Positions 26-16,344 of a DNA stretch of 64,000 bases are shown in pieces. The first letter of the stretch is position 1. Each line of letters starts with the position of its first letter. A program made the translations under genes and the position numbers. Under the pieces are notes generated by a model that saw only the letters and a program-made list of their open reading frames with translations, ran no database searches and was not told the DNA's origin. The DNA comes from Candidatus Poseidoniales archaeon (GTDB lineage Archaea; Thermoplasmatota; Poseidoniia; Poseidoniales; Poseidoniaceae): contig QQRY01000059.1 in assembly GCA_003602575.1 (NCBI GenBank), positions 145-64,144 on the forward strand, given 5' to 3'.

Positions 26-3000
26 ATGCGCAGCCACATAGTAGCACTATTAATCTTGATTTTGCTAGGCCAGTCATTATCCAATCTCAATAGTAATAAT
101 CACGATATTGATTCATTAAATGATGATTTAACTGCCAAATCAACACAAAATAATATTAACACAATTGTATCGAACTCAACAAATCTGGGCGTTAATCAAT
201 CTATGAACATAGCAAGTATAGCTGGCTTAAGTGTAATAGACCTAATTATGGATGATGACAATAACATTTACATCTGTTTTCAAATGAGCAAAGGAAATTA
301 TAACTCACCTATTCAAATTGAAAATTATTCTTCAAATTCTAGTGAAGATTTCTATACATATATATTCGCTAAATTTGATTTCAACAGAAGTCTTGTTTGG
401 GCTTTCAACTCGACAAATTTAGGAAGTGATCCTAAAATGAAACTAACATCAAATCAATCCTTAATTATTGGTTCTTCGTATCGTAGCACTCCAAATACAG
501 TTTCGACGTTTTACAACCAAACTGGCACAAAGTCACTTTTTTTGGCGACTATTGACCCAAACGGAAATATGACGCGATTTGTAAAAGCTAACCCACCTTC
601 ATCAATTGGTATTGATGATTTTGCTATCGATTCAAATGGCAATATATACGTTTATGGTTATGTGGGGTGTTCATCATGTACTGCTCCAATATCCTTTGGA
701 ACAAGTACATTTTATGTTGCAGGTTCGACAGACTTCTTTGCAAAATTAAATTCAAGTGGCAATTGGGATTGGGGGATCGGTACAACAGGAAACTCTTGGG
801 CACCTAGTAATTTTTTGCTGAGTGTTGACTCAAATGATGATTTGATTATAGCAGCAGATCTCTCTCTCAAAACAGGAAATTGGGATATTAAAAATTTCCT
901 TGGGGTATCAAGAGCCAATGAACATCCTGAGCAACTTTCTGGTACCAATAATGGTTGTTTATTGATTAAGATGTATAATCACAATCGAACCATTAAATGG
1001 CACACTACAATATATGGAGAATCGGGTGCTACATTAAAATGTAATTCAATTGATGTTGACAGCCAAAATAATATTTTTATTGGTGGCTCATACAATGAAC
1101 CATTTAGAACGCACAATGGTTCTACGAGCCCTTATGGTGGGGAGGATGCATATGTCGCTAAATATACATCAAGTGGAAATTTATCTTGGGTAAATTATTT
1201 TGGAGGAACAGGAGATGACGTAATTTCATCAATCGTAGTTGGAAATAATGGATTTGTTTCTATTTGTGGTTATTCACGTAGTACTACGATGTCTGTTGAT
1301 AATGGATTTTTAACAGGAAACGTTCCAATGATATTCTTTATACAAATGGACAGTTATTCAAATTATACCACTAGAATTTCCTCTAACGGAATAGGAGATG
1401 AATTAAACTGTTTGATTGAATCAAGTACAAATGGAGAGAAAATTTTATTTTATCAATTTACTACACAAACAAGATTTTCTGATATTTCACATACAAGCAT
1501 AAAACAAACAGACCTTGCTATATTTGAGTTTTCTAGCGACTATGATAGTGATGGTGTTTCAGATTACAGGGATTATGATGATGATGATGATGGAATATTA
1601 GATACAATCGATAGATGCCAGCATGGTCAACTTGATTGGACATCAAATACTGTCACAGACCATGATGCTGACGGATGTGTGGATAAAACAGAGGATGATG
1701 ACGATGACAATGATGCTGTGAATGATCAATTGGATAATTGTTCCCTTGGTAGCGTTAATTGGATTTCAAACAATACAAGTGACATGGATAATGATGGTTG
1801 CCAAGATTCTGGTGAAGATGATGATGATGATAATGATGGTTTTATTGATTTGAATGATTTATGTCCTCGGGTTTTTGGAAATTCAACCTATTTGTCTGAA
1901 TTCGGTTGTATAGATACTGATGGCGATACAAGACCAGATATTACTGATTTCAAACCAAAAGATGCTTCTGAATGGAATGACGCCGATAATGATGGCTTTG
2001 GTGATAATGAAGACTTATATCCTTATGATTTTACACAGAACAAAGATTCTGATAATGATTCATATGGAGACAATTCCTATGGAACAGAAGGAGATTATTG
2101 TCCTCAAGTGTATGGAAACTCAACCATTGATGTTTTCGGATGCATAGATTCTGATGGTGATGGTTGGTCAAATGATGGAGATGCAGATAAAGATAATCCA
2201 ACACAATGGCAAGATCGAGACGGTGATGGATATGGAGATAATCAATCCGGAACTAATGCTGATATGTTTCCCTCAGATGGAACTCAATGGATTGATTCTG
2301 ATGGCGATGGTCATGGCGATAATCCATATGGAACACAAGGCGATTGGTTCCCTGATGACCCGACGAGATGGCGTGATTCTGACCAAGATGCTACAGCCGA
2401 TGAAGATGATGCATTTCCTAATGATGGAACGCAACAAGTCGATTCTGATGGGGATGGATACGGTGACAATATCGATGGAAATAGAGGTGATGCATTCCCC
2501 GATGACCCACTAGAATGGAAGGATTCTGACGGAGATCTTTTAGGTGATAATGCCGATATGTTCCCATATGACCCTACTCAAATTGAAGACAGAGATGGAG
2601 ACGGTATGGGTGATAATCCAATGGGAATTGGTGCTGATAAGTTCCCTGATGATGCAACTCAATGGGGAGATATAGATGGTGATGGATATGGTGATAATTC
2701 ACTAGGCAACAACCCAGATTTGTTCATCACTGATGCTACACAATGGGCTGACAGAGATGGTGATGGTTACGGGGATAATCCTCAAGGTAGGCTGTATGAT
2801 TTGTTCCCAGACAACCCGACACAATGGGAAGATGCTGATGAAGATGGACTTGGTGATAATCAATCAGGAACTGATGCTGACCCATTCCTCAACGACTTTG
2901 ATAATGATGGCTACAATGATTCAATGGACATCCTGCCCAAACTAGCAAGTCCAGGTGATCTAGACGCAGACGGATGTCTCGATGAAGTAGATGCATTCCC

Positions 3001-3649
3001 CGAAAACGGTCAAGAATGTGTTGATACAGACGGAGACGGAATAGGCAACAATGGCGATTCAGATGATGACGGCGATGGCTGGACTGATGCTGATGAAGAA
3101 AGGTTAGGAACTGATTCATTGTCTTCAACTGACACTCCTGTAGATAGTTTTGAAATTGTAATTCCAGGAACTGCAGTTGGACTTGGTGCTTGGGATTTAA
3201 TTGGAATATTTGGTGGCGTGCCATTTTTTGCTTGGATAGGTTTTGGATTCGCAACTAGAAATGGTCGCTGTGAACGATATGAAGAATTACTCAAAGAAGC
3301 TACATCAAGAGATGAATTAGAAAAAGTTGCACTACGCTGGGAATACTCGCTAATGCTCAGAATGTTAGGTCCACACCAAGGAATTAGGCTAGAGAGATTA
3401 CGTGCCGAACTAGATGACAAGTTTGAGAATGCAACCTATGATGAAACTGACATTGGTTTTGATCAAACCAGTATTGTAGAAAATGAAGGCAAAGATATTC
3501 CACCAATCAACGATTCATTTGCCGGACCAACAAAGGAAACAGCCGCAACATCAACCGATGAATCTGGCTATGAATGGTTCAAACAAGGTGAAGAGAATTG
3601 GTATCGACCTGTTGATAGTAACGATGAATGGTTCAAGTTTGAAAACTAA
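26..3649 (+). CDS. Large type-I membrane surface protein: signal peptide, repeat-rich N-terminal ectodomain, long thrombospondin type-3-like Ca-binding repeat array, one TM helix, ~150-aa cytoplasmic tail
   Basis: 1207-aa ORF. It has the hydrophobic leader MRSHIVALLILILLGQSLS and dozens of DxDxDGxGD / DxDxDGxxD motifs. The hydrophobic segment GLGAWDLIGIFGGVPFFAWIGFGF is followed by a charged tail. Confidence 0.8.
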   Translation: MRSHIVALLILILLGQSLSNLNSNNHDIDSLNDDLTAKSTQNNINTIVSNSTNLGVNQSMNIASIAGLSVIDLIMDDDNNIYICFQMSKGNYNSPIQIENYSSNSSEDFYTYIFAKFDFNRSLVWAFNSTNLGSDPKMKLTSNQSLIIGSSYRSTPNTVSTFYNQTGTKSLFLATIDPNGNMTRFVKANPPSSIGIDDFAIDSNGNIYVYGYVGCSSCTAPISFGTSTFYVAGSTDFFAKLNSSGNWDWGIGTTGNSWAPSNFLLSVDSNDDLIIAADLSLKTGNWDIKNFLGVSRANEHPEQLSGTNNGCLLIKMYNHNRTIKWHTTIYGESGATLKCNSIDVDSQNNIFIGGSYNEPFRTHNGSTSPYGGEDAYVAKYTSSGNLSWVNYFGGTGDDVISSIVVGNNGFVSICGYSRSTTMSVDNGFLTGNVPMIFFIQMDSYSNYTTRISSNGIGDELNCLIESSTNGEKILFYQFTTQTRFSDISHTSIKQTDLAIFEFSSDYDSDGVSDYRDYDDDDDGILDTIDRCQHGQLDWTSNTVTDHDADGCVDKTEDDDDDNDAVNDQLDNCSLGSVNWISNNTSDMDNDGCQDSGEDDDDDNDGFIDLNDLCPRVFGNSTYLSEFGCIDTDGDTRPDITDFKPKDASEWNDADNDGFGDNEDLYPYDFTQNKDSDNDSYGDNSYGTEGDYCPQVYGNSTIDVFGCIDSDGDGWSNDGDADKDNPTQWQDRDGDGYGDNQSGTNADMFPSDGTQWIDSDGDGHGDNPYGTQGDWFPDDPTRWRDSDQDATADEDDAFPNDGTQQVDSDGDGYGDNIDGNRGDAFPDDPLEWKDSDGDLLGDNADMFPYDPTQIEDRDGDGMGDNPMGIGADKFPDDATQWGDIDGDGYGDNSLGNNPDLFITDATQWADRDGDGYGDNPQGRLYDLFPDNPTQWEDADEDGLGDNQSGTDADPFLNDFDNDGYNDSMDILPKLASPGDLDADGCLDEVDAFPENGQECVDTDGDGIGNNGDSDDDGDGWTDADEERLGTDSLSSTDTPVDSFEIVIPGTAVGLGAWDLIGIFGGVPFFAWIGFGFATRNGRCERYEELLKEATSRDELEKVALRWEYSLMLRMLGPHQGIRLERLRAELDDKFENATYDETDIGFDQTSIVENEGKDIPPINDSFAGPTKETAATSTDESGYEWFKQGEENWYRPVDSNDEWFKFEN
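1538..3100 (+). repeat. Degenerate tandem array of Asp-rich TSP3-like calcium-binding repeats (coding)
   Basis: DSDGDGYGDN, DRDGDGYGDN and DADEDGLGDN type units recur every ~20-25 aa. Cys-containing versions (DHDADGCVD, DMDNDGCQD) occur at the start of the array. Confidence 0.8.
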
Positions 3650-6380: not shown

Positions 6381-7205
6381 TTAATCTCTTTCATGCTCGA
6401 TATCTTGAGCAAAGCCATCTCTTGAATCGCCCATTCCACCAAATAATGCTTGGGCAAATGTCAGTACATCTGCTAGTCCATCTTCTAGTTCAGAAGAAAG
6501 TGGAGTCAAACCAGGTGCCTGCGAAAATTCTTGCATCATCCTCAGTTGATTAATTGCAAATTCAGTTCTTTGCCCTCCAGCCTCATCATATAATGCCAGT
6601 TCCAATATCTCCAACCTCTCGGACCATTCCAAAATTTTAGCAAGTTCATCTTCGTCTAGTAAATCTGATTTTGATAAGAAATTCTTTGTTGGAAGTCCAA
6701 GTCTAAATTCAACAATACTTGAGAGAAGCATCTGAGAAACGAAACCAGATGGAGAACGTGAAAGCATCGGGTCAAAGAGATAGATTATTGCAGACTGATC
6801 TCTACCTAGAACTTCAATCAAATGATTACTGGCTTCTCTAAATGCAAATAATTCAACTTGACCGGGAGTATCTACTATCATAACCTCGCCAGAAAGTGCG
6901 TGTAGTTGCTCTGCAACATCGCCTGCCTGTGCTGCCAGAAGGTCAGCAGCTAGAATTTGTGCACCATTTGGACCCAAATCATACTCAGACATAACCTCGG
7001 TAAGAGAAATTAAATCTCTAACATCAAATTCTGCATCATAATGTACTCTTTCTGCTCCAGGATCGAGATTTACAGCAATTGCATCTGTTTCTAAAAATCT
7101 TGACCATCTTTGAAACGCAGTTACTAAGGATGATTTTCCAGCACCTGCGGTACCTACAACAAATAATACAGGAGGAGTCCCACTATCCATACCGACCATG
7201 TTCAA
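6381..7205 (-). CDS. GPN-loop GTPase
   Basis: P-loop GTAGAGKSS and GPN motif DLGPNGAQ. Length is typical of the PAB0955/Npa3 family. Confidence 0.85.
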   Translation of the reverse strand: MNMVGMDSGTPPVLFVVGTAGAGKSSLVTAFQRWSRFLETDAIAVNLDPGAERVHYDAEFDVRDLISLTEVMSEYDLGPNGAQILAADLLAAQAGDVAEQLHALSGEVMIVDTPGQVELFAFREASNHLIEVLGRDQSAIIYLFDPMLSRSPSGFVSQMLLSSIVEFRLGLPTKNFLSKSDLLDEDELAKILEWSERLEILELALYDEAGGQRTEFAINQLRMMQEFSQAPGLTPLSSELEDGLADVLTFAQALFGGMGDSRDGFAQDIEHERD

Positions 7206-7357
7206 TGCTCCGACTCACCATAAATCAAGTTCACCGTCAAAACATAACATTTTACTCGCAAAACGCATATATTTATTCAAACCTTTGAGCATAATGGTTA
7301 TGTGCTATGCATCAATGGGCGAACTGGCGCATTGTGTTTATGCGCGGAGGAATTGAA

Positions 7358-10300
7358 ATGTCTGATGAGAAACCACCTATGCCCGAGATGCCACCTATGC
7401 CACCTATGAATGCACCACCTGCACCTCCAGGTATGCCTCCTATGGACGCTCCACCTGCACCTCCGGGTATGCCTCCTATGCCAGGTATGCCGCCAATGGA
7501 TGCACCACCGACTCCTCCAGGTATGCCACCTATGGACGCTCCACCGGCTCCTCCAGGTATGCCACCTATGGACGCTCCACCTGCACCACCTATGCCAGGT
7601 ATGCCACCTATGGATGCTCCACCTGCACCACCTATGCCAGGTATGCCACCTATGGATGCTCCACCCGCACCTCCTATGCCAGAAATGCCACCTATGGATG
7701 CACCTCCTGCACCTCCTATGCCAGAAATGCCACCAATGGATGCACCTCCTGCACCACCGGGTATGCCACCGATGGACGCTCCACCTGCACCTCCTATGCC
7801 AGAAATGCCACCTATGGATGCACCTCCTGCACCACCGGAAATGCCACCTATGGACGCTCCACCTGCACCACCTATGCCAGGTATGCCACCTATGGATGCT
7901 CCACCTGCGCCTCCTATGCCAGAAATGCCACCGATGGACGCTCCACCTGCACCACCGGAAATGCCACCTATGGACGCACCACCAGCCCCTCCAGGTATGC
8001 CACCTATGGACGCTCCACCTGCACCACCGGACATGCCGCCTATGGATGCACCCCCTGCTCCCCCTGAGATGGAGTCAAACGACGAAACGGATGTTTCTGA
8101 AGAATCAGATATTCTAACCGATCTCTCTGCACCACCGGCTCCACCTATGCCAGAAATGCCTCCTATGGATGCACCACCGGCCCCACCTATGCCACCTATG
8201 GATGCACTTCCGGCTGCTGATGCACTATTAGCGCCTCCAGCACCTCCTGTGGAAGAGACATCTGCTGCTGATTTACTACTAGCACCTCCTGCGCCTCCAA
8301 GCATGCCACCTATGGACGCTCCACCTGCACCTCCTGCGGCTGATGCACTTCTTTCTCCACCTCTACCACCTGCTACAGTTGAAGGAGATTCTGAAGAAAC
8401 TGAAGATATGACTCCTGATGAACAAATTGGAGAACAAGCTGGAGCAACTATCCGTTCTAGAGCTGAAGTTGATGAAGTCCCTGGAGATAAACTCGAAGGT
8501 ACATTGCATGAAGTTGAAAAAGCGACTCTCAACAGTGACGGAGAAATAATTAAGCAAACCGTAAAAGGTACTCTAACAATCAATAACCCTTCCAGTGATG
8601 ATAGAATTTACGATATTGACGTAATCCTTGACAATGCAGATTCAACTGATATTGGTGGCGACCATGTTTCAGTAGATGAATTAGAAGCTGGTAAGAAATA
8701 CAGTATGAAGTATAAGGTTGATGGAATGAGGATGCTTGTTCTTCGTGAACACCTTGACACCAATCCTGCTCGCTCTCAGGAGCGTTCATTATCTGTTGCC
8801 AATGGACCTGATGGTGGACCATTAGCCCTTGAGATTGAAGTTGAAAACGTTTCAAATGTTACTATTGATAATGTAGAAGTTACAAGACATATACCGAGTG
8901 AAATGTCTTTTGAGAATTCTGGCGACGCAGTAATCGAAGATGGAAACATGACATGGTCTGTTGGAAGTCTATCTGCTGGAGAAAAGAAGTCTCTCTCTAT
9001 TGAAGGTAAAATTACAGTTACTGGAACCAAGACAATCAATGCTGGCTCCGCTTCTGCCACCTATACCGCAAATTCTACACTATCAAGTTTGAATTTCAGA
9101 GAGTTGGATGCATTCTGTCGAGGGTTTACTTACATGAGAGTTCGTGAGGATGAAAGACCAGATAACTGGCTCTGCAAGACGATTTTCGAAAACCGTTCAT
9201 CCTTTGCAGTGGACTTGGTTAAACTTCAAGTTACTATGAAAGGAAGTAATGAATTATTATTCGATATATCTGATGTTGATGACGATGTACTACCTAACGG
9301 AAAGTGGGAATCTGATGAGAGAACTGTTGAAGCAACTTCTGAACCTGATTTCACTTATGATCTTTCATATACAATTCTACCTAGGGCAGTGCGCTCAACA
9401 GAAGGTTCGATAAGTCTAGAAGAGAGTTCATTCGACATTCTAGAAGCAGATGTCGAAAAGAAGTATTCAACTACTGGACTGCGTTCATACCGAAGTCAAA
9501 AAGTCGGAGCTTCTTTGAAGTTGACAAATTCTGGTTCTTCAACCATCAATTTGATGAGAATTACTGATGATGTCCCGGGACTATTTGACGCTCCAGACCT
9601 TGAATCAATGAGAATCAGTATTGGTGGTAAGGAACTTGAACCAGAGCAGTATAAGGCTGAAGTTAGCTCTGGAATCACTCTCGAGAAAGAACATCGTTCA
9701 CCTGATGGAGATGGACATACTCTAACCCTAACTATCGGTACAAGAGGACCTCTAGGATTAACACCTGGAGACGACATTTCCATAGAATATGATTTGATTG
9801 CACCAGATCCTTCTCCAGAAAATAAGATAGTAGTTGCTCCACTTCGTACCGAGTTCAGTGCAGAAAGATTTGGTCCGGTCTGTTCAAGAGATTGTAGCAA
9901 TCCTCCATCTCTGAAAGTAATTCACCACAGAAGAGACTTCTCTGCAGGTAAGCAAGCAATACCTCTCGGCGGCAAGGGAAGATACGAAGTTCTAATCCTG
10001 TTCGAGAATAACGGAGATACTGCATTACAAGATGTTTACATCAATGATGTGATTCCTTCAAACTTTGAAATCAAAGATTGGCATATCAAAGGAACCGGTG
10101 GAAAGCGCGATGATTGCGAAATGACCAGTGAAGATGGCGATGATGGTGCTCATGTCAGTTGGATGATCCCAATTGTCGGTAAGAATGAGAGATTAGAAGT
10201 ATCTTTTGAAATAAAAGGTTCCGGAGAAGTCGACGCTGAAGCACTAAATAGGTTCCACGGAGTCCATTTCGGCGATGAGGTTGAAACTGAAGATGTTCCA

Positions 10301-10753
10301 AGTCTCGAGGAAGAATCGGTTGAAGAGGCTGTTGAAGAAGAATCAACAGAAGCTGAAGCCTCTGATGAAGAAACACCAAAGGTCACTTGGAGAGAAGATG
10401 TATTGCTAAGAGTCATGAAGGCTAGCGGCATTGAAGACAGAGATGCATTCATTGCTCATGCTGTAAACTTCGACCATGATGATAATGGCTACTTGAAGAA
10501 GGCTGAACTTGAAGACGCTGCTAAAGCTTGGAATGAAGCTAACTCTGAAGAATCTTCAGAAACAGAAGAAGGTGAGGAAGTGTCTGAAGAATCCACTGAA
10601 GAGGAAGCTTCTAGTGAATCAGAGGAAGCAACAAATGATGATTCAGCCGATGAAGAATCTGGAGAATCAGAAGAGAAGCAATGTCCTATTTGTTCTATAA
10701 TGTGTCCTAAAGACGCAAAAACTTGCTCGGCTTGTTCATTTGCCTTTATTTGA
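7358..10753 (+). CDS. Novel multidomain protein: Met/Pro-rich tandem repeats, DUF11/CARDB-like beta-sandwich segments, EF-hand loop, acidic linker, C-terminal zinc ribbon
   Basis: Continuous ORF (opens at 7307). The ATG at 7358 has GGAGG 8 nt upstream. No signal peptide or TM segment is visible. EF-hand loop DHDDNGYLKKAE at 10472-10507. C-terminal CPICSIMCPKDAKTCSAC. Confidence 0.8.
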   Translation: MSDEKPPMPEMPPMPPMNAPPAPPGMPPMDAPPAPPGMPPMPGMPPMDAPPTPPGMPPMDAPPAPPGMPPMDAPPAPPMPGMPPMDAPPAPPMPGMPPMDAPPAPPMPEMPPMDAPPAPPMPEMPPMDAPPAPPGMPPMDAPPAPPMPEMPPMDAPPAPPEMPPMDAPPAPPMPGMPPMDAPPAPPMPEMPPMDAPPAPPEMPPMDAPPAPPGMPPMDAPPAPPDMPPMDAPPAPPEMESNDETDVSEESDILTDLSAPPAPPMPEMPPMDAPPAPPMPPMDALPAADALLAPPAPPVEETSAADLLLAPPAPPSMPPMDAPPAPPAADALLSPPLPPATVEGDSEETEDMTPDEQIGEQAGATIRSRAEVDEVPGDKLEGTLHEVEKATLNSDGEIIKQTVKGTLTINNPSSDDRIYDIDVILDNADSTDIGGDHVSVDELEAGKKYSMKYKVDGMRMLVLREHLDTNPARSQERSLSVANGPDGGPLALEIEVENVSNVTIDNVEVTRHIPSEMSFENSGDAVIEDGNMTWSVGSLSAGEKKSLSIEGKITVTGTKTINAGSASATYTANSTLSSLNFRELDAFCRGFTYMRVREDERPDNWLCKTIFENRSSFAVDLVKLQVTMKGSNELLFDISDVDDDVLPNGKWESDERTVEATSEPDFTYDLSYTILPRAVRSTEGSISLEESSFDILEADVEKKYSTTGLRSYRSQKVGASLKLTNSGSSTINLMRITDDVPGLFDAPDLESMRISIGGKELEPEQYKAEVSSGITLEKEHRSPDGDGHTLTLTIGTRGPLGLTPGDDISIEYDLIAPDPSPENKIVVAPLRTEFSAERFGPVCSRDCSNPPSLKVIHHRRDFSAGKQAIPLGGKGRYEVLILFENNGDTALQDVYINDVIPSNFEIKDWHIKGTGGKRDDCEMTSEDGDDGAHVSWMIPIVGKNERLEVSFEIKGSGEVDAEALNRFHGVHFGDEVETEDVPSLEEESVEEAVEEESTEAEASDEETPKVTWREDVLLRVMKASGIEDRDAFIAHAVNFDHDDNGYLKKAELEDAAKAWNEANSEESSETEEGEEVSEESTEEEASSESEEATNDDSADEESGESEEKQCPICSIMCPKDAKTCSACSFAFI
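7379..8068 (+). repeat. Coding tandem repeat: 16-17 copies of MPPMDAPPAPP with 1-3 aa spacers (36/42-nt period); 3 more copies at 8119-8340
   Basis: Read directly from the translation and the DNA periodicity. Copies differ mainly at synonymous third-codon positions. Confidence 0.95.
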
Positions 10754-11188: not shown

Positions 11189-11273
11189 GGATTAGTCTAA
11201 GAGGGTTTAGCGTTTCAAACTCACCCCTTATAGTTCATATTGGCAATTTAGGGTATTTTTGAACCCAACATTC

Positions 11274-12236
11274 ATGCCCTCTATGCTCTGCCCATCATCT
11301 ATGTCAAGTGGGAATAACCCGCCTCCACCTCAACCGCCAGGCGGTTCGATGATGATGATGCTCCTGATTATGGTCTTGATGACACTGCTGATCATGAATC
11401 CTGGAATTAGAGGTACACTTGGTGGAATTGCTGACCCAGTACTATCTCCAGTTCTACCTGAAGAAACTTATTTCATAATCACTGTACTAATGCTGGGTTC
11501 ATTTTCTATGCTAATGAATACAATTCTACGTAGCTTTTTCCAAGACCCAATAGCACAAGCACATATCGGTCACAGGCAGGGTCAAGTACGAAAAATGATG
11601 AATGATGCTCGTATGTCAAGAGACCCAATTCTCCAAGAAAAAGCAACTCTACTTCAGCAACAGATGATGCCAGAACAACTGAAAATACAAATGGGTGCTA
11701 TGAAGCCAATGATGTTTACAATGGTCATAATCATTGGTCTATTCTCTTGGCTAACAACTGCGGTTGAGACATTTAGAGTGGATTATGTATCACTGCCTTG
11801 GTCTTCTGAATGGAATTTATTAACAGATAAATTCCTATTTTTCCCAGCATGGATTTGTGCATATATTTGCATGAGTGCGCCCCTTGGAAGAGTTGTTGAT
11901 AGACACATTAAACTATTCCGATATCGTTCACATCCACTTGTTGTAGCAGGAGATAAATTGAAAGAGCCACTTCTTCACTTAGTTGCAGGTAAAGCTAAGA
12001 GTGAAGATGAAAATGCAAAGCGTAGAAGGCAGAGAAGTAGGTCAAAATCTAATAGGAACAAGAATGGAAAGAAAAAATCAAACAAGTCTGAAGAAAAACC
12101 TTCTAATTCCAAAGAGAATAAATCAACTTACTCAAGCGCTGAAGGTTTAGAATGCCCTACGTGTGGTTCCGACCTCATAACAAAGAGTGGGCCTAGAGAC
12201 AAGAAGTGTACAGTTTGCCGCTATACATGGGTGTAG
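11274..12236 (+). CDS. DUF106/EMC3-like membrane protein (archaeal YidC/Oxa1-like insertase candidate) with Lys/Arg-rich tail and C-terminal zinc ribbon
   Basis: TM-coiled coil-TM layout with MMPEQLKIQMGAMKPMMFTMVIIIG. It sits directly upstream of cmk and cbf5, as in the conserved archaeal gene order. Tail KRRRQRSRSKSNRNKNGKKK, then CPTCGS...CTVC. Confidence 0.6.
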   Translation: MPSMLCPSSMSSGNNPPPPQPPGGSMMMMLLIMVLMTLLIMNPGIRGTLGGIADPVLSPVLPEETYFIITVLMLGSFSMLMNTILRSFFQDPIAQAHIGHRQGQVRKMMNDARMSRDPILQEKATLLQQQMMPEQLKIQMGAMKPMMFTMVIIIGLFSWLTTAVETFRVDYVSLPWSSEWNLLTDKFLFFPAWICAYICMSAPLGRVVDRHIKLFRYRSHPLVVAGDKLKEPLLHLVAGKAKSEDENAKRRRQRSRSKSNRNKNGKKKSNKSEEKPSNSKENKSTYSSAEGLECPTCGSDLITKSGPRDKKCTVCRYTWV

Positions 12237-13950: not shown

Positions 13951-16344
13951 TCAATTGATTTTCCTGATTTTTGGAGGCGTTAGTAAAGTGAAAAGTCCTA
14001 TGATTATTACTAATACAATAATAGTGATAATCCATACCGATGAGCCAGATATCTCGAATCCACTCGATGTAGAATCTGATTCCTTCTCTTCTAGTACTTG
14101 TACAATAATTTCGGCTTGATTATTATCTTCATTTCCTTCGACAATATCGCCTCCTCGATCTATTTCAACACTAATTGTTGCAGATTGAATGCTTTCCGGA
14201 ACTTGCCATTCACATGTTACTACAGCAAGTTCTCCAGGTAAAAGAATCGAGATAGTTTGAATATCTACTAAATCTACACCTTGCTGGCATCTAACTGAGA
14301 TTAAAGTAGCCTCTGCATCACCATTGTTTCTAACATAAACACTGATTGGAATGATATCTCTATGATAAATTTCTTTATCTGTAACTACTATTTCTTCTAT
14401 TTCTAAATCTGGCAAAGATTGAACCTCAAGATCTAATATTCTTTGAGCACAGGTAGTCTGGTCACAGATATTAATCTCAACCGGGACAATTGAACCAGGA
14501 GTTGGAGCAATGACTGTTATGTAACCGGTGTCAAGGTCGATAGTAGCCCAACTTTTATTGGTATATGCAGTCAATCCTGTTGAATCAATATCACTGTATG
14601 TGAATGGCACCAGTGTGGAAACTGCTAATTCTACAGGAACAACTGCGGGGAATTCATTTAGCACTGGAGAATCATCGACAGAGTCTATAATTACAATGAA
14701 AGTTTCTTGCCATTGATTGCCTGCTTGATCGCTAACAGTAGTCAATACAGTGGTTGTTCCAGATGCTTCAGATTTGAGTAATATTCTTATGTCATCTTGA
14801 GAAATATCAACCGAAATCAAAGATTCATTTTCAATACTAAAGTCAATCGCTAAATTTTCATGGCTTGTTCTATCATCAACACAACCATTAACAAAAGGAA
14901 TTAGTTTTCCTCCTCCATCTTCTAAAAAGTGTTGAGTGCCAATCAAGTTACAAGTGGGGTCTTCATCCCATTCTAAATCAAATCCTCCAGTTACAGAGAT
15001 ACTAGAAATTTCAAGAGCAGTAGTACTTGAAGTTCCATTCGAATCCCAGTTAAACCAAGCTCTGATTCTCACTTCAATACTATCTGAATTAGAGTCAAGA
15101 TACTGCCCTATGGGTAAATCAAGATTGAAACTACCTAATTGAGCAATAGATTGGTAAGCCACTTCTTGGTTATTGACAAATACTTTCCATCTAGAGTTGG
15201 CAGTGGATAGACCATCCAAACTACCAAAAATTCTACCGTCTATTTTGAGAGAGGGATTATTGTAATCAGCTGAAATTCCTGAAACACATGAGTCGGTACT
15301 AGTGATTTTTATCTTTACAAATTGCTCTTCGACAAGTCCATGATTGGTTAGGGCGCTAAATTCAGAAAATGACACACCATCTGTCGAAGAAGAAACTTCC
15401 ATGACAACATCATCAATGCTAGAATCATCGAGTGAATAATGAACTCTTCCGATGGTTTGACTTGGTGGAGCCTCAATTATCTCACTTGTCCATGAACCTG
15501 ATGCACCAGAAACACTTGGTGATAGCCCGCATTGGGCAACGGCCATATTGTCATTAGTTCCGTTTGAGAGGTCGATTTGGACGATTGGCATTGAGTGCCC
15601 AGAAAAAATAGATGTCGAAGATGCCCACTCACTACCATACCATGGATATTTCACAACTACCTCGATTCCTAATGCATCGACGTCTAATCTGGAATCATCT
15701 GTCGAGCCTACAGAGACATAATCTAAATCAATTTCAATATCTTCAATCATTTGCCAATTCCAATTAGAAATGGAAGTTACATTCTTTGTCCATAGACTGC
15801 CATTCATGTAGTCAATTGAACTTTGAGTATTAACATAAGTAACTAAGTTTTCATAATTATCATCATATTTCATAGTAATTTGGACTTGATCTTGCTCTAA
15901 CTTATCAGGAATATGAAATGCTGCAACAACAGATACTGAAACTAATTCATAAGAACTCATACTGGAAACATCAAATGTATCTAACTCGATTATAGGCCCC
16001 GCTGTATAGGTATATTGCTGGTCTGGAGCGCCTGTTGAGAGGTTCGAATTGGTAGGTGAATTACTTGCCCAAGTAGTCAAAGACTGAAAGTTATCAGGTC
16101 GACTATGAAGCAAAGTCATTCGGTCATCTGCAACCATTGACTCTGTATATTCGGCATTAAGTGTTAGGAAAGATACTCCTGAGTCTGATTGCCAAAGGCC
16201 TGAATCTGAAAAATCTCCCTGAGGGAATAAATCGAAATTAGAAACTGAGTGGACACTTCTAGCACTTGAATGACCGACTAACGGCATAAAAAGCAATATT
16301 ACCAAAAAGGAAACTATCGAAATCCGCTTGTATTTCTCGCCCAT
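13951..16344 (-). CDS. Secreted/anchored surface protein with CARDB-like domain and C-terminal TM anchor
   Basis: 797 aa. Signal-like N-terminus ISIVSFLVILLFMPLVGHSSA. CARDB signature VYVRNNGDAEATLISVRC...EGNEDNN. C-terminus SSGFEISGSSVWIITIIVLVIIIGLFTLLTPPKIRKIN. Confidence 0.75.
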   Translation of the reverse strand: MGEKYKRISIVSFLVILLFMPLVGHSSARSVHSVSNFDLFPQGDFSDSGLWQSDSGVSFLTLNAEYTESMVADDRMTLLHSRPDNFQSLTTWASNSPTNSNLSTGAPDQQYTYTAGPIIELDTFDVSSMSSYELVSVSVVAAFHIPDKLEQDQVQITMKYDDNYENLVTYVNTQSSIDYMNGSLWTKNVTSISNWNWQMIEDIEIDLDYVSVGSTDDSRLDVDALGIEVVVKYPWYGSEWASSTSIFSGHSMPIVQIDLSNGTNDNMAVAQCGLSPSVSGASGSWTSEIIEAPPSQTIGRVHYSLDDSSIDDVVMEVSSSTDGVSFSEFSALTNHGLVEEQFVKIKITSTDSCVSGISADYNNPSLKIDGRIFGSLDGLSTANSRWKVFVNNQEVAYQSIAQLGSFNLDLPIGQYLDSNSDSIEVRIRAWFNWDSNGTSSTTALEISSISVTGGFDLEWDEDPTCNLIGTQHFLEDGGGKLIPFVNGCVDDRTSHENLAIDFSIENESLISVDISQDDIRILLKSEASGTTTVLTTVSDQAGNQWQETFIVIIDSVDDSPVLNEFPAVVPVELAVSTLVPFTYSDIDSTGLTAYTNKSWATIDLDTGYITVIAPTPGSIVPVEINICDQTTCAQRILDLEVQSLPDLEIEEIVVTDKEIYHRDIIPISVYVRNNGDAEATLISVRCQQGVDLVDIQTISILLPGELAVVTCEWQVPESIQSATISVEIDRGGDIVEGNEDNNQAEIIVQVLEEKESDSTSSGFEISGSSVWIITIIVLVIIIGLFTLLTPPKIRKIN

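What the first reader, a model, noticed from the sequence alone, without database searches (positions are those of the whole stretch)
7358..10753. Leaderless 1131-aa protein combining polyproline/Met repeats, surface-type beta-sandwich domains, an EF-hand and a zinc ribbon
No signal peptide or hydrophobic segment is visible anywhere in the ORF. It nevertheless contains at least three segments with the DUF11/CARDB-like signature (e.g. LALEIEVENVSNVTIDNVEVTRHIPSEMSF..., GASLKLTNSGSSTINLMRITDDVPGLF..., RYEVLILFENNGDTALQDVYINDVIPSNFEI...), which is normally found on exported proteins. These segments sit between a ~230-aa MPPMDAPPAPP array and a C-terminal module. That module has a canonical EF-hand loop (DHDDNGYLKKAE, 10472-10507), a ~60-aa Ser/Glu acidic linker and a CxxC-x10-CxxC zinc ribbon. 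I cannot place this architecture in any characterised family. It reads like a cytoplasmic, Ca-responsive scaffold or adaptor, and it is divergently transcribed from a GPN-loop GTPase. A 6-bp leader hairpin (7327-7345) lies just upstream of the GGAGG.
Basis: partly seen in the sequence, partly recalled or inferred. Interest (0 to 1): 0.8.

Follow-up and report, generated by a model that had tools for sequence, protein, structure and literature searches.

The report
Adaptor-like mu-homology protein in marine archaea
This gene encodes a cytoplasmic protein of marine Group II archaea whose folded core begins with the same "mu-homology" domain that eukaryotic vesicle-coat adaptors use to grab cargo; that domain was previously reported in prokaryotes only from Asgard archaea, so finding it here as a core gene changes where this piece of "eukaryotic" machinery is thought to occur.

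Summary

The new result is the identity of the β-rich core. 49 of the 50 best PDB matches are AP-1/2/3/4 μ or δ-COP μHDs. Three Ig-like sandwiches follow.

The ~580-aa core is homologous (22-29% identity, E down to 1e-73) to Asgard proteins that match Pfam Adap_comp_sub above threshold. Eme et al. 2023 listed such proteins as candidate adaptor μ-subunit homologues. BLASTP against one of their sequences gives E=1e-22.

The gene is found in 292 GTDB species genomes; the 80 best, which are the ones listed, are all Poseidoniales apart from one record titled Salipiger. Of 100 long relatives, 95 lack any hydrophobic segment, so the family is cytoplasmic.

The repeat peptides are under strong purifying selection (pN/pS ≈ 0.03). 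The Zn ribbon and then the EF-hand were added within Poseidoniales.

Best reading: a multivalent, possibly Ca-regulated cytoplasmic adaptor or scaffold. The function itself is inferred, not shown.

The parts
7296..7306 (+). Conserved leader box GGTTATGTGCT, about 50-60 nt upstream of the start codon; role unknown (promoter-proximal element or regulator site?)
   Evidence: Identical in 18 of 19 non-redundant Poseidoniales leaders although the flanks diverge. No Rfam family matches 7150-7420.
7327..7345 (+). Small hairpin (GCGCAT-N7-ATGCGC) immediately 5' of the Shine-Dalgarno sequence
   Evidence: Present as described. A 4-6 bp hairpin occurs at about the same place in 19/19 homologous leaders, with different stem sequences: CCGC/GCGG, UUGC/GCAA, GUCGC/GYGAC. 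Single-sequence energy is not better than shuffles, and RNAalifold finds no consensus.
7346..7350 (+). Shine-Dalgarno GGAGG, 7 nt before the ATG
   Evidence: GAGG conserved in all leaders.
7358..10753 (+). Complete coding sequence, 1131 aa plus stop
   Evidence: The N-terminus MSDEKPP is shared with 45 of 120 homologues; the others are truncated by gene callers at internal Met codons.
7358..8392 (+). Intrinsically disordered N-terminal region (residues 1-345). It holds 19 copies of PPM[DN]APP[AT]PP in 12/14-aa units, an acidic spacer (238-262), further repeats, and three D[AL]LL[AS]PP motifs (288, 305, 329).
   Evidence: Among the 19 copies there are 18 different DNA versions, with pS=0.50 and pN=0.016, so the peptide itself is under purifying selection. 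Polyproline plus D-L-L motifs recur in all Poseidoniales clades, while Met-richness does not.
8465..9193 (+). Mu-homology domain (residues ~370-612; boundaries approximate).
   Evidence: AF2 domain model: pLDDT 90, pTM 0.77. Foldseek against the PDB: 49 of the top 50 are AP-1/2/3/4 μ or δ-COP μHDs, prob 1.00, E from 5e-8, TM (target-normalised) 0.53-0.65 for isolated μHD chains, about 240 aligned columns. The family profile hits AP-3/AP-2 μ in PDB sequences at E=4e-5 to 1e-3. 28 of 55 relatives hit Pfam PF00928. The PF00928 match of P0148 maps to residues 376-584.
9194..9472 (+). β-sandwich 2 (residues ~613-705). The most conserved family motif, E-x-ERP-x-x-W-x-C-x3-F-E-N-x-S-x-F, lies at the junction of the μHD and this domain (about residues 596-616).
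   Evidence: AF2 full model, pLDDT >90. Invariant or near-invariant columns P262, C267, F271, N273, S275 of A3 across MGII and Asgard.
9473..9898 (+). β-sandwich 3 (residues ~706-847), CLIPPER_2/DUF7507-like
   Evidence: Weak Pfam DUF7507 match at 699-745. All-β AF2 model.
9899..10237 (+). β-sandwich 4 (residues ~848-960), DUF11/TIGR01451-type, preceded by the invariant V-x-H-x-RR-x4-GK motif
   Evidence: TIGR01451 match, 26.4 bits against a cut-off of 24. Invariant H517, R519, G525, K526, N545, D558 in A3. AF2.
10238..10372 (+). Acidic disordered linker (residues ~961-1005)
   Evidence: pLDDT <50 for model residues 645-667; composition.
10373..10555 (+). Three-helix EF-hand module (residues ~1006-1066); Ca-type loop DHDDNGYLKKAE at 10472-10507
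   Evidence: Present in 164/167 proteins of the clade at >=60% identity, 0/45 of the 40-60% clade and 0/18 Asgard relatives.
10556..10675 (+). Ser/Glu-rich acidic disordered linker (residues ~1067-1106)
   Evidence: pLDDT about 28-30; composition.
10676..10750 (+). C-terminal zinc ribbon CPIC-x10-CSAC (residues ~1107-1131)
   Evidence: Four Cys conserved in 113/120 homologues. Present in all Poseidoniales clades (156/167 and 45/45) and absent from Asgard relatives. Only weak similarity to eL40 and RanBP2-type fingers (E>=0.04).
6381..7205 (-). Divergently transcribed GPN-loop GTPase (a neighbour, not shown to be a functional partner)
   Evidence: PF03029, E=5e-51. The adjacency is kept at 66% and 45% identity, but as part of a larger syntenic block.

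Best explanation
**What it is**
The gene encodes a soluble cytoplasmic hub protein that is a core gene of Poseidoniales (Marine Group II archaea).

**Anatomy, N to C**
1. A ~345-aa disordered arm carrying about 22 copies of a selected proline-rich peptide (PPMDAPPAPP) and three D-L-L motifs.
2. A mu-homology domain (μHD). This is the bipartite β-sandwich with which eukaryotic AP-complex μ subunits, δ-COP, muniscins and stonins bind short linear motifs and acidic lipids.
3. Three Ig-like β-sandwiches of the DUF11/CLIPPER type.
4. An acidic linker, a single EF-hand, a second acidic linker and a terminal zinc ribbon.

**Relatives**
The μHD plus three-sandwich core is the Poseidoniales counterpart of the Asgard proteins previously flagged as homologues of the C-terminal domain of the adaptor μ subunit.

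**Shown here**
- The anatomy above.
- Cytoplasmic character, from the absence of any export signal across the family.
- Homology to the Asgard family.
- The predicted μHD fold.
- Purifying selection on the repeat peptide.
- Stepwise addition of the Zn ribbon (all Poseidoniales) and then the EF-hand (the clade at >=60% identity).

**Inferred mechanism**
- The rigid μHD/Ig platform recognises short peptide motifs, for example in cytoplasmic tails or disordered regions of partners, and possibly the membrane surface.
- The long multivalent arm recruits many copies of a proline-motif or DLL-motif reader, or binds back to the platform of other molecules to form a network.
- Ca2+ binding to the EF-hand and the Zn ribbon modulate or localise this assembly.

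**Confidence**
The confidence given (0.6) is a blend: about 0.85 for the identity (a cytoplasmic μHD-family protein homologous to the Asgard candidates) and about 0.4 for the adaptor/hub mechanism.
For: **Cytoplasmic**
- Maximum hydropathy is 0.71. 95 of 100 long relatives have no hydrophobic segment.
- Genuine surface proteins in the same window (26..3649 and 13951..16344) carry classic N-terminal signals and C-terminal anchors.
- The protein ends in a four-Cys Zn ribbon and has an EF-hand.

**μHD**
- Foldseek with the domain model: 49 of the top 50 hits are μHDs, prob 1.00. In the full-length search μ2/μ3A also appear, with TM (target-normalised) 0.54-0.65 for the isolated μHD chains.
- The family HMM hits AP-3, AP-2, δ-COP, AP-1 and AP-4 μ in PDB sequences. 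The 20 best are all AP μ chains.
- 28 of 55 relatives match PF00928, best E=1.9e-10, several above the gathering score.

**Homology to the Asgard family**
- phmmer gives E values from 1e-73 down across residues ~380-960. tblastn gives 1e-43 to 1e-49.
- BLASTP against a published Asgard ESP candidate gives E=1e-22.
- All named distant relatives are Loki, Thor, Hod or Njord archaea.

**Core gene**
- 292 confirmed species-representative genomes. Conserved synteny.

**Functional short motifs in the arm**
- pN/pS is about 0.03 among repeat copies. The motif classes are conserved order-wide.

**EF-hand**
-.

**Basis for the adaptor inference**
- Established knowledge of eukaryotic μHD proteins: AP μ binds YxxΦ, FCHo/SGIP μHD binds DPF motifs, δ-COP is a further case. 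Several of them (FCHo, SGIP1, stonin) combine a long motif-bearing disordered region with a μHD.
Against: - The window protein itself does not hit Pfam PF00928.
- An MGII-only profile shows no significant sequence match to μ subunits (HMMER against the PDB; hhalign against μ2 E=0.27). The μHD assignment for this protein therefore rests on transitive homology through Asgard relatives plus a predicted, not experimental, structure.
- TM-scores of about 0.55-0.6 with rmsd 4-6 Å are moderate.
- No ligand-pocket residues were checked.
- Poseidoniales are not known to have endomembranes, coats, clathrin or the other AP subunits, so there is no obvious cargo-sorting context.
- No partner gene is conserved next to it beyond general synteny.
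- The EF-hand loop has Lys at position 9, which is outside the PROSITE pattern. Only one loop is present where EF-hands normally come in pairs.
- No expression or localisation data were available.
Confidence: 0.6

Rival explanations
1. It is a surface adhesin or S-layer-associated protein, like classical DUF11/CLIPPER/CARDB proteins, exported by an unconventional route. The proline-rich region would act as a cell-wall-spanning stalk.
For: Pfam DUF11 and TIGR01451 matches above threshold, and weak DUF7507/CARDB matches. DUF11 (CLIPPER) is typically found in surface fibrillar adhesins (PMC12617251). Pro-rich spacers are common in wall-anchored proteins (general knowledge). The full-model Foldseek top hits are extracellular multi-Ig chains such as integrin legs and PrgB.
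Against: - No signal peptide, Tat motif, TM segment or C-terminal sorting signal. The same holds for 95 of 100 relatives.
- Exported proteins in this very window do have signals and anchors.
- The C-terminus is a four-Cys Zn ribbon, with an EF-hand before it.
- The integrin-type matches have TM of only about 0.15, reflecting generic tandem Ig domains.
- The best DUF11 segment is part of a μHD.
Confidence: 0.06
2. It is a cytoplasmic scaffold unrelated to membranes. The μHD/Ig platform and the multivalent arm would organise a housekeeping machine suggested by its neighbours, such as RNA polymerase or ribosome biogenesis (GPN-loop GTPase, Cbf5) or membrane-protein insertion (EMC3/YidC-like). It might act as a condensate-forming hub.
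For: Adjacency to the GPN-loop GTPase (divergent) and to EMC3_TMCO1-CMK-Cbf5 is retained down to 45% identity. The long low-complexity arm with selected multivalent motifs is typical of condensate scaffolds (general knowledge). The weak similarity of the Zn ribbon is to ribosomal eL40 (E=0.11).
Against: The whole region is collinear in Poseidoniales, so adjacency is not specific evidence. The immediately downstream gene differs between clades: a 140-aa ORF here, a 341-aa TPR protein elsewhere. An Asgard homologue has an unrelated neighbourhood. The eL40 similarity is not significant.
Confidence: 0.2
3. The Met-rich repeats (32 MxxM and 12 MxxMxxM motifs) make it a Cu(I)/Ag(I) buffer or a methionine-based antioxidant sink.
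For: The N-terminal 330 aa are 16% Met, with regular MxxM spacing. MxxM 'Mets' motifs bind Cu(I) in Ctr1 and CopA/PcoA-type proteins (general knowledge).
Against: Met-richness is not conserved. Sister clades have polyproline/acidic arms with few or no Met (for example P0271, P0327, P0360), whereas PPxPP and D-L-L motifs persist. Met-based Cu sites are typical of oxidising compartments, not the cytoplasm (general knowledge). This reading does not explain the μHD/Ig/EF-hand/Zn-ribbon body.
Confidence: 0.05
4. The ORF is an assembly chimera or a fusion of two genes (a repeat gene plus a β-sandwich gene), or a repeat-collapse artefact.
For: Database gene models for the identical locus differ in length (915 and 959 aa against 1131 aa). 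Tandem repeats are prone to mis-assembly.
Against: The shorter models simply start at internal Met codons of the same sequence. The arrangement of arm, acidic spacer, arm and core is found in dozens of independent assemblies, including contigs of 1.0 to 1.5 Mb (for example P0022 and P0041). Repeat copies differ at synonymous sites (18 DNA versions of 19 copies), which argues against collapse or duplication artefacts. Only the copy number is uncertain.
Confidence: 0.01

Closest known systems
Asgard archaeal 'Adap_comp_sub' (PF00928) proteins, listed as candidate homologues of the C-terminal domain of the adaptor-complex μ subunit (Eme et al. 2023, Nature, PMC10307638, Table S3); NCBI calls some of them 'COG1470 family protein'
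   Same: - The same ~580-aa core: μHD followed by three Ig-like sandwiches, collinear, 22-29% identity.
- Shared motifs: G-x-L-x3-N-x-S-x3-RI[WY]D, ERP-x2-W-x-C-x3-F-x-N-x-S-x-F and V-x-H-x-RR-x4-GK.
- No signal peptide, and not fused to a longin (Clat_adaptor_s) domain.
   Different: - The lineage is Poseidoniales (Thermoplasmatota), not Asgard.
- The MGII proteins are too diverged to hit PF00928 themselves.
- They carry an added N-terminal Pro-rich multivalent arm, a C-terminal Zn ribbon and, in one clade, an EF-hand.
- Asgard members instead have other N-terminal extensions (HEAT repeats, coiled coils) and several paralogues per genome.
Eukaryotic μHD proteins: AP-1 to AP-4 μ subunits, δ-COP, and especially the muniscins/SGIP1/stonins, which combine a long disordered motif-bearing region with a μHD
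   Same: A predicted μHD fold over about 240 residues. Profile-level sequence similarity of the family to μ2 303-408 and to the start of the μ4 μHD. The μHD is combined with a long disordered region rich in Pro and short repeated motifs. D-L-L-type motifs recall the clathrin-binding DLL repeats of AP180; this comes from memory and was not tested.
   Different: - No longin, F-BAR or stonin-homology domain.
- The μHD is followed by three extra Ig-like domains rather than ending the protein.
- Conservation of the YxxΦ or DPF pocket was not examined.
- The host has no known coat, clathrin or endomembranes.
- About 12% structure-based identity.
[quoted passage not shown]
   Same: Pfam and TIGRFAM matches above threshold. 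Ig-like β-sandwiches carrying the N-x-G...[DN]-x-[IV]-P signature.
   Different: No signal peptide, no anchor, no long tandem stalk. The protein is cytoplasmic. One 'DUF11' match is really part of a μHD. The Lys-Asp-Asn isopeptide triad could not be checked, and the last strand of sandwich 4 lacks an obvious Asn.
EF-hand Ca-binding proteins (calbindin, secretagogin, calmodulin)
   Same: A helix-loop-helix with ligands D1, D3, N5, G6, L8 and E12. Profile hits only EF-hand proteins.
   Different: A single loop within three helices, rather than a pair of EF-hands. Lys at loop position 9. Pfam score below threshold.
Short terminal zinc ribbons (zinc_ribbon_2-like; RanBP2/NZF-like spacing C-x2-C-x3-N-x6-C-x2-C in most family members)
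   Same: Four Cys with identical spacing. In most homologues the Asn is present (in this window it is Cys).
   Different: No significant database match (best E=0.04). The Trp typical of RanBP2 fingers is absent.

Membership tests
Mu-homology domain (Pfam PF00928 Adap_comp_sub) | Sequence match to the Pfam model at or above the gathering score | tested here: not met
   The window protein has no PF00928 hit even at E<=1. Its homologues do: 28/55 at E<=0.01, and P0173 (35.2 bits) and P0186 (39.7 bits) exceed the 31.6-bit cut-off.
Mu-homology domain (Pfam PF00928 Adap_comp_sub) | Bipartite all-β fold of about 250-280 residues, superposable on solved μHDs over both subdomains | tested here: met
   AF2 domain model with pLDDT 90. 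Foldseek: 49 of the top 50 PDB hits are μHDs of AP-1/2/3/4 and δ-COP, prob 1.00, about 240 aligned columns, TM (target-normalised) 0.53-0.65 for isolated μHD chains. This is a predicted structure only.
Mu-homology domain (Pfam PF00928 Adap_comp_sub) | Profile-level sequence homology to eukaryotic μ subunits | tested here: inconclusive
   The mixed MGII+Asgard profile gives AP-3 μ at E=4.4e-5, and the 20 best hits are all AP μ chains. The Asgard-only profile against μ2 gives E=0.0013. The MGII-only profile gives nothing (E=0.27).
Mu-homology domain (Pfam PF00928 Adap_comp_sub) | Ligand pockets (YxxΦ site F174/D176/K203/W421/R423 of μ2, or the DPF/WxxΦ sites) and the basic PIP2 patch | not tested
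   Model coordinates and residue-level structural alignments were not available from the tools.
AP/COPI adaptor medium subunit (full μ subunit) | N-terminal longin (Clat_adaptor_s) domain fused to the μHD, and partner large and small subunits | tested here: not met
   The N-terminus is a 345-aa Pro-rich disordered region with no longin match. It is not a μ subunit, only a μHD-containing protein. Partner subunits were not searched for.
Asgard Adap_comp_sub ESP-candidate family (Eme et al. 2023) | Collinear homology over the μHD plus downstream sandwiches, with shared invariant motifs | tested here: met
   phmmer gives E=1e-73 to 1e-23 over query 40-620. BLASTP against Jordarchaeia_GBS07_35160 gives 28% identity over 312 aa, E=1e-22. 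Invariant columns are shared in A1 and A3.
DUF11 / CLIPPER surface adhesin domains | Pfam PF01345 or TIGR01451 match above cut-off | tested here: met
   PF01345: 39 bits against 24.6 (residues 490-567). TIGR01451: 26.4 against 24 (residues 882-904).
DUF11 / CLIPPER surface adhesin domains | Signal peptide and cell-surface context (sorting signal, tandem stalk) | tested here: not met
   No hydrophobic segment anywhere. The family is cytoplasmic.
DUF11 / CLIPPER surface adhesin domains | Lys-Asp-Asn intramolecular isopeptide triad | not testable with these tools
   Testing this needs model coordinates. Invariant K865 and D897 (A3 K526, D558) exist in sandwich 4, but no conserved Asn is evident in its last strand.
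EF-hand | 12-residue loop with ligands at positions 1, 3, 5 and 12, Gly6 and a hydrophobic residue at 8, flanked by helices | tested here: met
   DHDDNGYLKKAE. Flanking helices at model 689-699 and 709-727, pLDDT about 96. Conserved in 164/167 of its clade. The profile retrieves only EF-hand proteins, best E=2.5e-6.
EF-hand | Pfam gathering score, strict PROSITE pattern, and a paired second EF-hand | tested here: not met
   EF-hand_7 scores 11.4 bits against 30. Lys at loop position 9 is outside the PROSITE set (from memory of PS00018). Only three helices and one loop are predicted.
Zinc ribbon | Two CxxC knuckles with conserved spacing | tested here: met
   CPIC-x10-CSAC, conserved in 113/120 homologues and in 45/45 of the sister clade. 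Two short β-strands are predicted. No significant family-level match.

The most novel reading that the evidence does not exclude
**Claim**
The μHD-based adaptor module is not an Asgard/eukaryote invention. It is an older archaeal cytoplasmic device, or one exchanged between Asgard archaea and Poseidoniales. In abundant planktonic archaea it already works as in eukaryotes: a μHD platform reads short linear motifs at the membrane, coupled to a long multivalent proline/DLL-motif arm that nucleates a Ca2+-regulated protein network.

**Corollary**
The same ~80-100 residues match both Pfam DUF11 and the AP μ subunits. The second β-sandwich of the μHD may therefore derive from the prokaryotic DUF11/CLIPPER Ig domain, which would give the μHD a traceable prokaryotic origin.
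Probability: 0.15. Interest if true: 0.85.

Novelty: new variant of a known kind. Interest (0 to 1): 0.66.

Why it matters
- **Where the μHD occurs.** The μHD is a defining part of eukaryotic vesicle-coat adaptors. Its prokaryotic relatives have so far been reported, sparsely, only from Asgard archaea, and they are used as evidence for proto-trafficking in the eukaryotic ancestor. The same protein family turns out to be a near-universal, syntenic core gene of Poseidoniales, one of the most abundant archaeal groups in the surface ocean and not an Asgard lineage.
- **Evolutionary meaning.** Either the family is older than Asgard or it moved horizontally. In both cases its presence alone cannot be read as a eukaryote-like trafficking trait.
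- **A more tractable system.** The MGII version is abundant in metagenomes, metatranscriptomes and metaproteomes. It has a high-confidence model and a strikingly clean multivalent peptide array under purifying selection. That makes "what does a prokaryotic μHD bind?" directly testable.
- **Annotation.** The family is currently labelled "DUF11 domain-containing" or "uncharacterized repeat protein", and gene models are often N-terminally truncated.

Tried and rejected
- **Single-sequence searches.** Single-sequence phmmer of residues 340-1131 against the PDB found nothing. Pfam and NCBIfam on the protein alone gave only DUF11/TIGR01451.
- **Second homologue search wasted.** An Asgard-only alignment (A2) was needed to obtain named Asgard relatives.
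- **MGII-only profiles.** The MGII-only profile against PDB sequences and hhalign against μ2 were not significant. Direct MGII-to-μ sequence similarity cannot be claimed.
- **Full-length Foldseek.** It was dominated by generic multi-Ig chains (integrin legs, PrgB, α2-macroglobulin, TRAPPII) with TM of about 0.15. I rejected these as uninformative and re-predicted the first domain alone.
- **Gene neighbourhood.** It did not identify a partner.
- **Leader RNA.** No Rfam hit, no significant single-sequence fold and no RNAalifold consensus.
- **Literature.** Searches for an archaeal μHD outside Asgard, or for this MGII protein, found nothing.
- **Hypotheses considered and rejected.** Cu-binding Met motifs, because Met-richness is not conserved. 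A chimeric assembly. A paralogue elsewhere in the window: none found.

Full report
**1. The observation**

The ORF 7358..10753 (+) is real and encodes 1131 aa. A longer ORF from the ATG at 7307 is listed, but the start at 7358 is the credible one. GGAGG lies 7 nt upstream. The N-terminus MSDEKPP is shared by 45 of 120 database homologues; the rest were truncated at internal Met codons by gene callers. The 90 nt upstream behave as a conserved non-coding leader.

- No 19-residue window exceeds a Kyte-Doolittle mean of 0.71, so there is no signal peptide or TM segment.
- The first 330 residues are 44% Pro, 16% Met and 16% Ala, and contain 19 copies of PPM[DN]APP[AT]PP in 12/14-residue units. After an acidic spacer come more repeats and three D[AL]LL[AS]PP motifs.
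- Pfam gives DUF11 above threshold for residues 490-567 and a weak DUF7507 match for 699-745. NCBIfam gives TIGR01451 for 882-904.
- The EF-hand loop, acidic linkers and CxxC-x10-CxxC are at the stated coordinates.
- The divergent neighbour is a GPN-loop GTPase (PF03029, E=5e-51).

**2. The repeats are selected peptides, not drift or an assembly artefact**

The 19 copies of the 10-residue core are encoded by 18 different DNA sequences. All variable sites but two are third codon positions. Pairwise pS is 0.50 against pN of 0.016. Each copy is therefore old enough to have saturated synonymous sites, while the peptide is kept intact.

Across the order the arm varies in length (143-361 aa in proteins with an intact start). 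It always starts MSDE-like, always carries polyproline motifs (PPxPP[GE][ML][DE]) and usually carries D-L-L motifs (LDLLTP, ADLLAP, DALLAPP). Met-richness is lost in sister clades. This is how motif-bearing disordered regions typically evolve. It also argues against a conserved metal-binding role for the Met residues.

**3. Relatives**

The non-repeat part (residues 340-1131) has hundreds of close homologues named Poseidoniaceae, Thalassarchaeaceae or Poseidoniales.

- A scan of GTDB species representatives confirmed 292 genomes. The 80 best are all Poseidoniales, apart from one record titled Salipiger, and the closest is an MGIIa MAG at 92% identity.
- Synteny (UbiA, OTCase, GPN | gene | x | EMC3_TMCO1, CMK, Cbf5, CARDB surface protein) is kept at 66% and at 45% identity. 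This is a core, vertically inherited gene. The neighbourhood is a collinear housekeeping block, and the gene immediately downstream differs between clades. An Asgard homologue has an unrelated context. I therefore give little weight to the GPN adjacency.
- An exhaustive search of 1.84 billion cluster representatives found 554 relatives. Beyond the MGII clades (>=33% identity) there is a large set at 22-29% identity, aligned collinearly to residues ~380-960 with E values down to 1e-73.
- Every one of these that carries a source name is Asgard: Promethearchaeota/Lokiarchaeota, Ca. Harpocratesius, Thorarchaeota, Hodarchaeota, Njordarchaeia.
- Of 100 relatives longer than 550 aa, 95 have no hydrophobic segment. 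Absence of an export signal is a property of the superfamily, not a gene-model error.

**4. What the β-rich core is**

Pfam scans of the distant relatives gave PF00928 (Adap_comp_sub, the μ-homology domain of adaptor medium subunits) alongside DUF11.

- 28 of 55 members match at E<=0.01, best 1.9e-10. P0173 and P0186 are above the gathering score. Three members also touch AP3B1_C and one has HEAT repeats. The precomputed Pfam labels of the Promethearchaeota group agree.
- A profile of the family that includes the window protein, searched against all PDB sequences, returns AP-3 μ (E=4.4e-5) and AP-2 μ2 (about 8e-4) as its 20 best hits, followed by δ-COP, AP-1 μ and AP-4 μ among the weaker ones. 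Profile positions 148-253 align to μ2 303-408, and positions 25-68 align to the start of the μ4 μHD, so the match is collinear over the domain.
- AlphaFold2 on residues 340-1131 with a 70-sequence alignment gave mean pLDDT 86, with the β-region mostly above 90.
- In the full-length Foldseek search, generic multi-Ig chains lead with TM of about 0.15. μ2 and μ3A C-terminal domains appear with prob 1.00 and TM (target-normalised) 0.54-0.65 for the isolated μHD chains.
- Re-predicting residues 365-655 alone (pLDDT 90, pTM 0.77) and searching the PDB gave an unambiguous ranking. 49 of the top 50 hits are μHDs of AP-2, AP-3, AP-4, AP-1 and δ-COP, with about 240 aligned columns, essentially the whole target domain.
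- Mapping the PF00928 match of the Asgard member P0148 through the alignment places the μHD at residues about 376-584, extrapolated to about 370-612.
The same stretch matches both DUF11 and the μ subunits.

Three further Ig-like sandwiches follow, at about 613-705, 706-847 and 848-960. The last two resemble CLIPPER_2 and CLIPPER/TIGR01451.

Caveats:
- The window protein itself has no PF00928 hit.
- An MGII-only profile finds no μ subunit, and hhalign against μ2 gives E=0.27. The Asgard-only profile gives E=0.0013.
- The assignment for this protein therefore rests on robust homology to Asgard proteins that do match, plus a predicted structure.

**5. Relation to what is known**

Eme et al. [quoted passage not shown] They list 44 candidates in Table S3. 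The first of these (Jordarchaeia_GBS07_35160) aligns to the window protein at 28% identity over 312 residues, E=1e-22, and carries the same family motifs. The MGII protein is thus a member of that published candidate family.

I found no paper in the searchable library describing it outside Asgard, or describing this MGII protein. The library is incomplete, so this is absence of evidence only. DUF11 was recently renamed CLIPPER and characterised as an isopeptide-bonded stalk domain of surface adhesins (PMC12617251). The present family is a cytoplasmic exception to that generalisation.

**6. C-terminal modules**

- A profile of the 64-residue module retrieves EF-hand proteins from the PDB: calbindin 2.5e-6, secretagogin 6e-4 and calmodulin about 1e-3, aligned over helix-loop-helix.
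- AF2 predicts three helices with the loop between the second and third. The loop has the canonical ligands but Lys at position 9, and there is no second loop. Ca binding is plausible but unproven, and dimerisation through the odd EF-hand is conceivable.
- The modules were added stepwise. The Zn ribbon is in all Poseidoniales clades (156/167 and 45/45) but in 0/18 Asgard relatives. The EF-hand is in 164/167 proteins of the clade at >=60% identity and in 0/45 of the 40-60% clade.
- The Zn ribbon has RanBP2-like spacing in most homologues, but no significant match.

**7. Mechanism**

Shown:
- a soluble protein with a long multivalent disordered arm whose peptide motifs are under selection;
- a rigid platform of μHD plus three Ig domains, conserved from Asgard to MGII;
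- two small terminal modules on acidic tethers.

Inferred from the established behaviour of μHD proteins (AP μ, δ-COP, FCHo/SGIP1, stonins): the platform reads short linear motifs and perhaps acidic membrane surfaces. The arm recruits many copies of a partner, or cross-links molecules into a network. The EF-hand and Zn ribbon regulate or localise the assembly.

I put about 0.85 on [quoted passage not shown] and about 0.4 on the adaptor or hub mechanism as stated.

Rivals: an export-independent surface adhesin (0.06), a scaffold for neighbouring housekeeping machinery (0.2), a Met-based metal or redox buffer (0.05), and an assembly chimera (0.01).

**8. Verdict**

This is a new, lineage-specific variant (added arm, Zn ribbon and EF-hand) of a known but barely characterised kind, the archaeal μHD proteins. 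It occurs in a non-Asgard lineage where it is a core gene. That matters for how "eukaryotic signature" trafficking domains are interpreted, and it offers an abundant and clean system for asking what a prokaryotic μHD binds.

Noticed in passing
window 7296-7306 (and homologous leaders in L001, L006-L085): An 11-nt box, GGTTATGTGCT, about 50-60 nt upstream of the start codon is identical in 18 of 19 non-redundant Poseidoniales leaders, while the flanking sequence diverges. It could be a promoter-proximal or regulator-binding element shared with the divergent GPN-GTPase promoter, or part of the 5' UTR. No Rfam match.
   Followed up: partly
window 7327-7345 and the equivalent positions in 19 homologous leaders: A 4-6 bp hairpin directly 5' of the Shine-Dalgarno sequence recurs in every clade with different stem sequences (GCGCAU/AUGCGC, CCGC/GCGG, UUGC/GCAA or GCAG, GUCGC/GYGAC). 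That pattern looks compensatory. Single-sequence energies are not significant, and RNAalifold could not register the stems.
   Followed up: partly
window 7312-8583 (-) and 7410-8117 (+, other frame); L001 7221-7990: The proline repeat casts long shadow ORFs: a 423-aa Gly-rich antisense ORF and a 235-aa out-of-frame ORF. Annotation pipelines mis-call this region. The identical locus appears in databases as 915-aa and 959-aa proteins starting at internal Met codons, and L001 carries two spurious small genes in place of the arm.
   Followed up: yes
window 11259-12236 (+): The neighbouring EMC3/TMCO1-like (YidC-type) membrane protein has a short Pro-rich N-terminus (NNPPPPQPPGG), a long Lys/Arg/Ser-rich tail and its own C-terminal zinc ribbon (CPTC-x14-CTVC). 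So two adjacent genes end in tethered Zn ribbons.
   Followed up: no
window 26-3649 (+) and 13951-16344 (-): Two genuine surface proteins. One is 1207 aa with many Asp-rich DxDGDGxGDN-type Ca-binding repeats; the other is 797 aa with a CARDB domain. Both have classic N-terminal signal peptides and C-terminal TM anchors, which gives an in-window control for what exported proteins look like in this genome.
   Followed up: partly
P0136 / P0394 / P0401 (other Poseidoniales genomes; not in this window): A second, shorter paralogue exists in some MGII genomes labelled Thalassarchaeaceae or 'Euryarchaeota archaeon'. It is 687 aa, 33% identical, has no Pro-rich arm and no EF-hand, but does have a C-terminal Zn ribbon. 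tblastn finds no copy in this window.
   Followed up: partly
Asgard relatives P0157, P0185, P0197, P0198, P0221, P0236, P0258, P0267 and others: One subgroup of the Asgard relatives has N-termini that look like HEAT/PBS-lyase repeats (one member hits HEAT_2 at E=8.5e-15). Three members weakly hit AP3B1_C. Others carry long coiled-coil insertions, or a conserved N-terminal 'MGFKR...LET.LSP.F.G.PLK' motif. A HEAT plus μHD combination is reminiscent of adaptin trunk plus μ.
   Followed up: no
window protein residues 587 and 606 (nt ~9116-9118, 9173-9175): Two Cys are highly conserved in a cytoplasmic β-domain: DAFCRGF (near-invariant in the MGII alignment A4; some sequences have Ser here) and NWLCKT (invariant across MGII and Asgard in A3). 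They flank the most conserved family motif (ERP-x2-W-x-C-x3-FENxSxF). Whether they pair, bind metal or line a pocket could not be examined without coordinates.
   Followed up: no
L081 (CAXQWT010000087.1): One GTDB record carrying a 63%-identical copy with typical MGII flanks is titled 'Salipiger bermudensis' MAG (a bacterium). This is almost certainly a binning contaminant rather than a bacterial homologue.
   Followed up: no
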